Shown here piece by piece: positions 63,727 through 64,000 of a DNA stretch of 64,000 bases. The notes below the pieces were generated by a model. It was not told the DNA's origin and made no database searches. It was given only the letters and a program-made list of their open reading frames with translations. Within the stretch, counting starts at the first letter, position 1. Every line of letters starts with the position of its first letter. A program made the position numbers and the translations under genes. Source of the stretch: Escherichia coli (GTDB taxonomy: Bacteria > Pseudomonadota > Gammaproteobacteria > Enterobacterales > Enterobacteriaceae); assembly GCF_036507355.1 (NCBI RefSeq), contig NZ_AP027877.1; one strand, 5' to 3'.

Positions 63727-64000
63727 CAGCCTATATTTACCGTGCCGCCACCGATAACCACGCCGCCGCAGTCAACAGCATCACCGCTTCTGGCGGCGGG
63801 CAGACCGTCAATAAAGACGGTTGAAGAACCTCTGGCGATTTTTCGGGGATGAGGGGGATGCTTCGGTTTAGCATGCGGCGTCAGCGGATCTCCCTGACGG
63901 GCTGCGGGAAGACCATCGATAAAGACGGTGGATGACCCGGCGGTGATGACGGTCTCGTAATAACCGTCGTGCTGGGTGCCTTTGTCGGTGAGTTTGGCTG
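63727..64000 (-). CDS. PAAR-domain protein, 3' portion (5' end beyond window)
   Basis: minus-strand translation ...SSTVFIDGLPAARQGDPLTPH...GSSTVFIDGLPAARSGDAVDCGGVVIGGGTVNIG*: repeated PAAR motifs; stop at 63727, 19 bp upstream of vgrG start. Confidence 0.7.

What the first reader, a model, noticed from the sequence alone, without database searches (positions are those of the whole stretch)
63727..64000. PAAR-repeat gene immediately upstream of vgrG, cut by the window edge
The minus-strand translation shows two SSTVFIDGLPAAR-type PAAR motifs and a glycine-rich end, stopping 19 bp before the vgrG start with a good SD. This suggests a co-transcribed PAAR-vgrG pair and that further T6SS-related genes may lie beyond the window.
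Basis: seen in the sequence. Interest (0 to 1): 0.45.

Follow-up and report, generated by a model that had tools for sequence, protein, structure and literature searches.

The report
Known T6SS PAAR tip gene
This is an ordinary, well-known E. coli gene for the small PAAR protein that caps the type VI secretion spike; it is about 96% identical to a crystallised orthologue, and here it sits in front of a vgrG partner gene that has been destroyed.

Summary
The minus strand of 63729-63998 encodes 90 residues with two exact SSTVFIDGLPAAR motifs. A TGA stop lies at 63728-63726, 18 nt (not 19) before the vgrG ATG at 63707.

The protein passes Pfam PAAR_motif and NCBIfam NF033420 above their cut-offs. 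Its 90 residues are identical to the 94-aa E. coli protein WP_001127492.1. It is 89/93 identical to PDB 4JIW chain D, the CFT073 PAAR protein c1882. Judged from relatives, only 10 nt of the gene lie beyond the window.

688 of 5426 complete E. coli genomes carry the gene, and 680 have it contiguous with the vgrG 5' end.

- In all 13 relatives examined with this gene, the DNA beyond it holds yncG, ansP and yncE. No T6SS genes are there.
- The vgrG in this window is dead. IS600 is inserted after codon 309, and a 796-bp deletion removes its 3' end and the 5' part of the DUF2169 chaperone gene.

So this is a known gene at the head of a decaying auxiliary T6SS island. Novelty: already known. Interest is low.

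The parts
63726..64000 (-). PAAR gene. It covers codons 4 (partial) to 94 of a 94-codon CDS, plus the TGA stop at 63728-63726. The first 10 nt lie beyond the window.
   Evidence: Translation. Pfam PF05488 scores 75.2 bits. NCBIfam NF033420 scores 156.5 bits against a cut-off of 124. The 90 residues are identical to WP_001127492.1. It is 89/93 identical to PDB 4JIW_D.
63897..63935 (-). First SSTVFIDGLPAAR motif, residues 26-38 of the full protein.
63789..63827 (-). Second SSTVFIDGLPAAR motif, residues 62-74.
63708..63725 (-). 18-nt spacer between the PAAR stop and the vgrG ATG. It contains the GAGAGG Shine-Dalgarno sequence.
   Evidence: No promoter-like or terminator-like site here.
62782..63707 (-). 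vgrG 5' fragment: 308 complete codons plus 2 nt of codon 309 (Phage_GPD domain). Its reading frame runs into IS600 and stops.
61518..62781 (-). IS600, 1264 bp, with TG...CA ends, inserted in vgrG. The 3-bp target duplication TCC lies at 62782-62784 and 61515-61517.
   Evidence: Junctions read. 99.9% identical to elements annotated 'IS3-like element IS600 family transposase'.
60758..61517 (-). vgrG middle fragment (OB-fold and gp5 trimerisation domains). It ends at the deletion junction.
60758..60764 (-). Deletion junction. A single GATAAAA remains where the intact relative PapRG-04-4 has two copies 796 bp apart. The vgrG 3' end and about the first 130 DUF2169 codons (Pfam profile positions 1-136) are lost.
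60108..60757 (-). DUF2169 chaperone gene remnant. Only Pfam profile positions 137-294 of 294 remain.
58676..60115 (-). 479-aa effector with an N-terminal Tox-PAAR-like (DUF4150, 'PIPY') domain and a C-terminal C39-type cysteine peptidase domain. The ORF is intact.
   Evidence: Same length as WP_088129690.1 in PapRG-04-4.
58411..58701 (-). 96-aa ORF overlapping the end of the effector gene. Presumed immunity gene (inference from position only).
   Evidence: no family match
56637..58280 (-). Second cargo cassette: the homologue of the gene annotated 'peptidase M35' in E. coli 042, plus two small ORFs.
   Evidence: no Pfam match
55803..56432 (.). Right border debris of the island: an ISAs1-family transposase remnant (56079-56432, minus strand) and a GGDEF-domain remnant (55803-56015, plus strand).

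Best explanation
The feature is the gene for a small, stand-alone ('orphan', class 1) PAAR protein. It is the orthologue of E. coli CFT073 c1882.

How such proteins work, from work on c1882, VCA0105 and the EAEC PAAR:
- They fold into a cone held by a Zn ion.
- At least in EAEC T6SS-1, PAAR is needed for baseplate and sheath assembly.

The gene is the first gene of an auxiliary T6SS island. The island lies between yncG and pptA/yddH, the position of rhsE in K-12 (the K-12 assignment is from my own knowledge). Ancestrally the gene is translated from one transcript with vgrG, 18 nt downstream. That is inferred from the spacing and the lack of signals between the genes.

In this genome the module has decayed.
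- IS600 splits vgrG at codon 309.
- A 796-bp deletion removes the vgrG 3' end and the 5' part of the DUF2169 chaperone gene.
- The PAAR ORF, the PIPY-C39 effector ORF and the presumed immunity ORF remain open.

The PAAR gene lies upstream of both lesions and can still be expressed. It has no cognate VgrG, so it is most likely a stranded remnant unless another VgrG in the cell accepts it.
For: Identity of the gene:
- Pfam PAAR_motif 75.2 bits against a cut-off of 27.
- NCBIfam NF033420 'type VI secretion system PAAR protein' 156.5 bits against 124, matched end to end, positions 1-94 of 94.
- The 90 window residues are identical to WP_001127492.1.
- 89/93 identical to 4JIW chain D and E = 1.3e-32 to 4JIV.
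- All His and Cys candidates for the Zn site (H14, H46, H51, H54, C81) are conserved in both solved structures.

Function of the family:
- c1882 is described as an orphan PAAR with a crystal structure and Zn coordination (PMC7773334).
- Three His and one Cys bind Zn in c1882 and VCA0105.

Selection: differences from three E. coli alleles are 4-8 synonymous and 0 non-synonymous.

Pairing with vgrG: 680 of 688 PAAR-bearing complete genomes have the gene contiguous with the vgrG 5' end. No promoter-like or terminator-like site lies in the spacer.

Island position: yncG lies upstream in all 13 contexts with this gene that I examined, and also bounds the PAAR-less vgrG-Rhs cassette at the same site.

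Decay:
- IS600 has TG...CA ends and a TCC duplication.
- The 796-bp deletion lies between GATAAAA repeats.
- The DUF2169 remnant covers only profile positions 137-294.
- The same lesions occur in independent assemblies (L015-L020), so they are not an assembly artefact of this window.
Against: - The first 10 nt and the ribosome-binding site are not in the window. An intact start in this genome is inferred from relatives, not seen.
- No expression data exist, and co-transcription is inferred only.
- Whether this genome has a T6SS core, or another VgrG that could accept the PAAR protein, cannot be seen in 64 kb.
- The all-synonymous substitution pattern may date from before vgrG was lost, so it does not show present function.
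Confidence: 0.9

Rival explanations
1. The PAAR gene is still in use. It caps a different VgrG encoded elsewhere in the genome and is kept by selection although its neighbouring vgrG is dead.
For: - The ORF is fully open, with 0 non-synonymous against 4-8 synonymous differences.
- It lies upstream of the IS600 insertion, so it is not subject to polarity.
- Canonical PAAR proteins bind VgrG without a chaperone (PMC11883445).
- In draft assemblies of the same lineage, several contigs break at window position 60950, inside the conserved vgrG core. This hints at other vgrG copies in those genomes.
- E. coli genomes often hold several matches to the PAAR-plus-vgrG 5' probe, median 2 per genome.
Against: - No other vgrG or T6SS core gene is in the window (six-frame PAAR motif search).
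- The synonymous-only pattern can be inherited from before the decay.
- The contig-break inference is indirect.
- Whether this PAAR can pair with other VgrGs is untested.
Confidence: 0.25
2. The frame is the C-terminal PAAR domain of a larger protein whose N-terminal part (for example prePAAR with transmembrane domains, or another domain) lies beyond the window.
For: The 5' end of the gene is cut by the window edge, so the start is not seen directly.
Against: - All relatives examined have an ATG with AGGAGG 10 nt past the edge, preceded by about 540 bp of non-coding DNA and then yncG.
- The NCBIfam model is matched end to end by a 94-aa protein.
- The window DNA is 98.5% identical to those alleles right up to the edge.
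Confidence: 0.02
3. It is a toxin-carrying PAAR or PAAR-like effector (Rhs type, or the DUF4150/PIPY type), not a plain tip protein.
For: There is a weak Tox-PAAR-like match. A genuine PIPY effector lies in the same island.
Against: - Tox-PAAR-like scores 18.9 bits, below its cut-off of 31.
- The protein stops 20 residues after the second PAAR motif, so there is no room for a toxin domain.
- It carries true PAAR motifs.
Confidence: 0.01

Closest known systems
E. coli CFT073 c1882, PDB 4JIW (orphan class 1 PAAR; Shneider et al. 2013, cited through PMC7773334 and PMC10715212)
   Same: 89 of 93 aligned residues are identical. It has the same length, both GLPAAR motifs, the same His and Cys residues, and the same glycine-rich C-terminus. 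NCBI gives it the same product name in E. coli genomes.
   Different: There are four conservative substitutions: G39E, A46D, S74T and V78I (window residue first). In this window the neighbouring vgrG is inactivated.
WP_001127492.1, 'type VI secretion system PAAR protein' of E. coli 042 (EC042_RS08380) and many other strains
   Same: All 90 residues visible in the window are identical. The position is the same: first gene of the island next to yncG, 18 nt before vgrG. The exact protein is listed in 10320 blocks of the large public collection.
   Different: The DNA differs by 4 synonymous changes. The cargo differs: 042 has an 801-aa VgrG plus an M35-type gene, while this window has a DUF2169/PIPY-C39 cassette. 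The vgrG is broken here.
Vibrio cholerae VCA0105, PDB 4JIV
   Same: Same family and fold class. E = 1.3e-32 over residues 10-94, with conserved PAAR motifs and His/Cys positions.
   Different: It is a more distant homologue, roughly 60% identical by my count from the alignment, from a different organism and locus.
EAEC T6SS-1 PAAR EC042_4537 (PMC10715212)
   Same: It is a small stand-alone PAAR that caps VgrG, binds Zn, and is needed for baseplate and sheath assembly. This is the functional model for the family.
   Different: It is 88 aa, uses a 2 His + 2 Cys metal site, and is encoded inside a core T6SS cluster. The window's protein is of the c1882 type (3 His + 1 Cys) and sits in an auxiliary island.
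VgrG-DUF2169-PIPY (DUF4150) non-canonical spike modules (PMC11883445)
   Same: The genes downstream of the window's vgrG are of this kind: a DUF2169 remnant plus a Tox-PAAR-like effector.
   Different: The finding itself is a canonical PAAR, which needs no DUF2169. Here DUF2169 is truncated, so the PIPY effector cannot be loaded either.

Membership tests
PAAR domain proteins (Pfam PF05488; NCBIfam NF033420, T6SS PAAR protein) | Sequence matches the family profile above the curated cut-off | tested here: met
   PF05488 scores 75.2 bits against 27 on the 90 window residues alone. NF033420 scores 156.5 bits against 124 over positions 1-94 of 94, using the four N-terminal residues from relatives.
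PAAR domain proteins | Three PAAR or PAAR-like motifs per domain | tested here: inconclusive
   Two exact GLPAAR motifs are in the window. The expected third, degenerate N-terminal motif (PLAAK in relatives) straddles the window edge, and only its last two residues, AK, are visible.
PAAR domain proteins | Conserved Zn-binding His and Cys residues at the cone apex (3 His + 1 Cys in c1882 and VCA0105) | tested here: met
   H14, H46, H51, H54 and C81 are identical in the alignments to 4JIW and 4JIV. The ligand type comes from PMC10715212. Which of H51 and H54 is the ligand was not determined here.
PAAR domain proteins | Near-identity to a solved PAAR structure | tested here: met
   89/93 identical to 4JIW chain D, E = 1.6e-57.
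PAAR domain proteins | Complete ORF with its own start codon | not testable with these tools
   The start lies 10 nt beyond the window. It is present, with AGGAGG, in every relative examined. Attempts to retrieve this genome's own flank failed.
PAAR domain proteins | Physical binding to the VgrG beta-helix tip | not testable with these tools
   Known for the family from the solved c1882 and VCA0105 structures and the EAEC cryo-EM complex. Not tested for this allele.
Functional PAAR-VgrG spike module | Intact vgrG immediately downstream | tested here: not met
   vgrG is split by IS600 at codon 309 and lacks its 3' end through a 796-bp deletion.
Functional PAAR-VgrG spike module | T6SS core genes in the same genome | not testable with these tools
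   There are none in the 64-kb window. The rest of the genome is not available.
Tox-PAAR-like / DUF4150 (PIPY) effectors (PF13665) | Profile match above the cut-off, plus a C-terminal toxin domain | tested here: not met
   18.9 bits against a cut-off of 31, over 23 residues only. The protein ends 20 residues after the second PAAR motif.
Rhs-type or other extended PAAR toxins | Extension beyond the PAAR domain | tested here: not met
   There is a stop codon directly after the domain. The 94-aa length is matched end to end by NF033420.

The most novel reading that the evidence does not exclude
The island encodes two alternative caps for one VgrG tip: a self-sufficient canonical PAAR upstream, and a chaperone-dependent PIPY effector downstream. 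The PAAR gene stays perfectly conserved even where vgrG and DUF2169 are destroyed.

The most novel reading not excluded is this. The c1882-type PAAR would not be dedicated to its neighbouring VgrG. It would be a general, trans-acting tip used by other VgrGs of the cell, and it would be kept by selection as the fixed 'left arm' of a cargo-swapping locus.
Probability: 0.2. Interest if true: 0.3.

Novelty: already known. Interest (0 to 1): 0.1.

Why it matters
It matters little in itself. The gene is annotated in hundreds of E. coli genomes and its orthologue has a crystal structure.

The useful outcome is the correction for annotating this window:
- The PAAR gene is essentially complete, missing only 10 nt.
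- It marks the left border of an auxiliary T6SS island at the yncG/rhsE hot spot. It is not the edge of a larger T6SS cluster.
- The island is a decaying one. Its vgrG and DUF2169 are pseudogenes, while the PAAR, effector and presumed immunity ORFs survive.

Such remnants bear on how effector and immunity genes persist after the delivery genes are lost.

Tried and rejected
Attempts to obtain this genome's own sequence beyond 64000 all failed:
- An exact search for the vgrG/IS600 junction in genome contigs found nothing.
- An exact look-up of the 312-aa vgrG-IS600 fusion ORF found nothing on record.
- A 60-nt allele-specific PAAR pattern in metagenome contigs found nothing.

The look-up of the DUF2169 remnant succeeded. 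It gave only contigs that cover the right-hand side of the island and stop in or before IS600.

The original paper by Shneider et al. 2013 is not held in the library. Its results are cited through two later papers.

The promoter scan of the yncG-PAAR intergenic region in a relative gave 4 sites against 2.9 expected. This is uninformative.

I considered that the window might be Shigella, because of IS600. I did not adopt this. Only one IS element was noticed in the 64 kb, the ddp and nar operons appear as uninterrupted ORFs, and the core DNA is 98.3-98.7% identical to ordinary E. coli. The strain remains unidentified.

I did not run a structure prediction, because a 96% identical solved structure exists.

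Full report
**Observation**

The minus strand of 63400-64000 was read and translated in all three frames. Only the frame starting at 63998 is open. It gives 90 residues: AKLTDKGTQHDGYYETVITAGSSTVFIDGLPAARQGDPLTPHAKPKHPPHPRKIARGSSTVFIDGLPAARSGDAVDCGGVVIGGGTVNIG.

- The two SSTVFIDGLPAAR motifs lie at 63935-63897 and 63827-63789.
- Their DNA differs at 9 of 39 positions, all synonymous. The repeat is therefore maintained at the protein level.
- The stop TGA is at 63728-63726.
- The vgrG ATG is at 63707, preceded by GAGAGG.
- The spacer is 18 nt.
- No other PAAR motif in a plausible gene occurs anywhere in the window.

**Identity**

- The 90 residues alone score 75.2 bits on Pfam PAAR_motif (cut-off 27, E = 4.7e-21). 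Tox-PAAR-like stays below its cut-off at 18.9 against 31.
- 692 of 5426 complete E. coli genomes match the 701-bp stretch that spans the gene and the vgrG 5' end. The annotation is always 'type VI secretion system PAAR protein' followed by TssI/VgrG.
- In E. coli 042 the gene is EC042_RS08380, protein WP_001127492.1, 94 aa.
- Translated, it reads MPLA followed by exactly the 90 residues of the window.
- The DNA alignment shows 4 differences inside the gene, all synonymous. The window begins at nucleotide 11 of the CDS.
- The reconstructed 94-aa protein matches NCBIfam NF033420 end to end, 156.5 bits against a cut-off of 124.
- Against solved structures it is 89/93 identical to 4JIW chain D. 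It also matches 4JIV (E = 1.3e-32), T4 gp5.4 and the PAAR domains of Rhs and Tse-type effectors.
- Two papers identify 4JIW as c1882 of E. coli CFT073, an 'orphan' PAAR without a toxin domain. They state that c1882 and V. cholerae VCA0105 hold a Zn ion through three His and one Cys (PMC7773334; PMC10715212).
- All candidate ligands (H14, H46, H51, H54, C81) are conserved in the window's protein.

**Function, by homology**

[quoted passage not shown] For the EAEC T6SS-1 PAAR, cryo-EM shows the cap. Genetics show it is required for killing, baseplate recruitment and sheath assembly (PMC10715212). Canonical PAAR proteins bind VgrG on their own, unlike DUF4150/PIPY domains, which need DUF2169 (PMC11883445). 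None of this was tested for the present allele. It is inference from 96% identity to c1882.

**Pairing with vgrG**

The PAAR gene alone is found in 688 of 5426 complete genomes. 680 of them have it contiguous with the vgrG 5' end. No promoter-like or terminator-like site lies between the two genes. The only promoter-like hit in 62700-64000 is inside IS600. A single transcript is therefore likely in intact relatives, but this is an inference.

**What lies beyond the window**

Three annotated genomes (042, Z1323HEC0462, PapRG-04-4) and ten further contigs carrying the exact protein were examined. In all of them the PAAR gene is preceded by about 540 bp of non-coding DNA. Then come yncG (a glutathione S-transferase homologue), ansP, yncE, pqqU, mcbR, curA and mnaT. 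No T6SS gene lies upstream within 10 kb.

The strain closest in the flanking core genes (OkiPb01695) has a vgrG-Rhs cassette at the same site, again bounded by yncH and yncG.

So the gene is the left border of a variable auxiliary island. I could not retrieve this genome's own flank.

**State of the island in this window**

BLAST against the intact island of PapRG-04-4 gave four segments:

| Window | L003 (PapRG-04-4) | Identity |
|---|---|---|
| 64000-62782 | 3001-4219 | 97.1% |
| 61519-60758 | 4215-4976 | 92.8% |
| 60764-56069 | 5773-10466 | 98.8% |
| 55559-55002 | 10467-11024 | 96.4% |

- The 1264-bp gap between the first two segments is an IS element with TGAGGT...ACCTCA ends and a TCC target duplication. 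It is 99.9% identical to elements annotated IS600.
- The second discontinuity is a 796-bp deletion between two GATAAAA repeats. It removes the vgrG 3' end, the intergenic region and about the first 130 codons of the DUF2169 gene.
- Pfam confirms the fragments: Phage_GPD in the 5' piece, Phage_base_V and Gp5_trimer_C in the middle piece, and DUF2169 profile positions 137-294 only.
- Downstream, the 479-aa Tox-PAAR-like + Peptidase_C39 effector and the 96-aa ORF overlapping its end are open. Both have the same lengths as in PapRG-04-4.
- Next comes a second cassette, homologous to the 042 gene annotated 'peptidase M35', then an ISAs1 remnant and a GGDEF remnant.
- GC content falls from 56-61% in PAAR/vgrG to 29-40% in the cargo.

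The same deletion is present in independent assemblies. One draft genome, GCA_905398585.1, is 99.91% identical over 11.5 kb, and its contig begins 76 nt inside IS600. So the lesions are real and shared by a lineage.

**Selection**

Against three E. coli alleles the PAAR gene shows 4-8 synonymous and 0 non-synonymous differences. The vgrG 5' fragment shows 10-16 synonymous and 7-9 non-synonymous. This shows past purifying selection on PAAR. It cannot date that selection relative to the loss of vgrG.

**Interpretation**

The finding is the known c1882-type PAAR tip protein gene, essentially complete in the window, at the head of an auxiliary T6SS island. In this genome the island has lost its spike gene and its chaperone gene.

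The PAAR gene lies upstream of both lesions and may still be expressed. Whether it serves another VgrG is open. Contig breaks inside the conserved vgrG core in related draft assemblies hint at other vgrG copies, but this is indirect.

A mild curiosity: intact versions of this island encode two alternative caps for one VgrG, a canonical PAAR and a PIPY effector. This fits the pattern of high identity in PAAR and the vgrG 5' half, with divergence further on. That pattern suggests cargo swapping by recombination within vgrG while the PAAR gene stays in place.

**Verdict**

- Observation: confirmed.
- Interpretation: partly supported.
- Novelty: already known.
- Interest: low.

Noticed in passing
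window 61518-62781: A complete IS600 (1264 bp, IS3 family, orfA/orfB) is inserted in vgrG at codon 309, with a 3-bp TCC target duplication. It is the only IS element I noticed in the 64-kb window.
   Followed up: yes
window 60758-60764: A 796-bp deletion, relative to E. coli PapRG-04-4, lies between two GATAAAA repeats. It fuses the vgrG middle part out of frame to DUF2169 at about codon 130. The same lesion occurs in GCA_905398585.1 and in several Logan and ENA contigs (L015-L020).
   Followed up: yes
window 58411-60115: An intact 479-aa effector carries a Tox-PAAR-like (DUF4150/PIPY) N-terminus and a C39-type cysteine peptidase C-terminus. A 96-aa ORF with no family match, presumed immunity, overlaps its end. 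Both stay open although their VgrG and DUF2169 partners are broken.
   Followed up: partly
window 56637-58280: A second, AT-rich (29-34% GC) cargo cassette is homologous to the E. coli 042 gene annotated 'peptidase M35' and its neighbour. It has no Pfam match. The neighbour appears as two ORFs (96 and 151 aa) here, against 219-273 aa in relatives, so it may be frameshifted.
   Followed up: partly
window 55560-56432: An ISAs1-family transposase remnant lies at 56079-56432. A 70-aa GGDEF-domain C-terminal remnant lies at 55803-56015, between the island and pptA. The GGDEF piece is absent from PapRG-04-4 but annotated as a partial diguanylate cyclase in strain OkiPb01695.
   Followed up: partly
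window 22583-29376: A 6.8-kb insertion lies between ddpF and osmC, relative to strain OkiPb01695. It holds a LysR regulator, 3-oxoacid CoA-transferase subunits A and B, a thiolase, a 3-hydroxyacyl-CoA dehydrogenase, a 463-aa protein with no NCBIfam match and a 3-hydroxybutyrate dehydrogenase. This looks like a ketone-body or short-chain hydroxy-acid utilisation cluster.
   Followed up: partly
window 41333-43914: Two tandem genes encode leucine-rich-repeat proteins (421 and 424 aa) between ompC-like and narU. They have weak similarity to the LRR part of SlrP.
   Followed up: no
window 31000-55900: The core chromosome (fdn, nar, maeA and others) is at most 98.7% identical to any of 5426 complete E. 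coli genomes. No record reaches 99%, so the source lineage is not represented in that set. The strain was not identified.
   Followed up: partly
L016, L018, L019, L020 (start at window 60949/60950): Several independent short-read contigs of related genomes all begin at the same point, inside the conserved gp5-like part of vgrG. This suggests that stretch is repeated in those samples, meaning another vgrG copy. Two of the four are metagenome assemblies, where the copy could belong to another strain.
   Followed up: no
L013 10001-20285: In one E. coli contig the identical PAAR gene is followed by dkgB-like, yafC-like, rnhA, dnaQ, yafT and hcp genes instead of vgrG. This looks like a chromosomal rearrangement through recombination between vgrG copies of two T6SS loci.
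   Followed up: no
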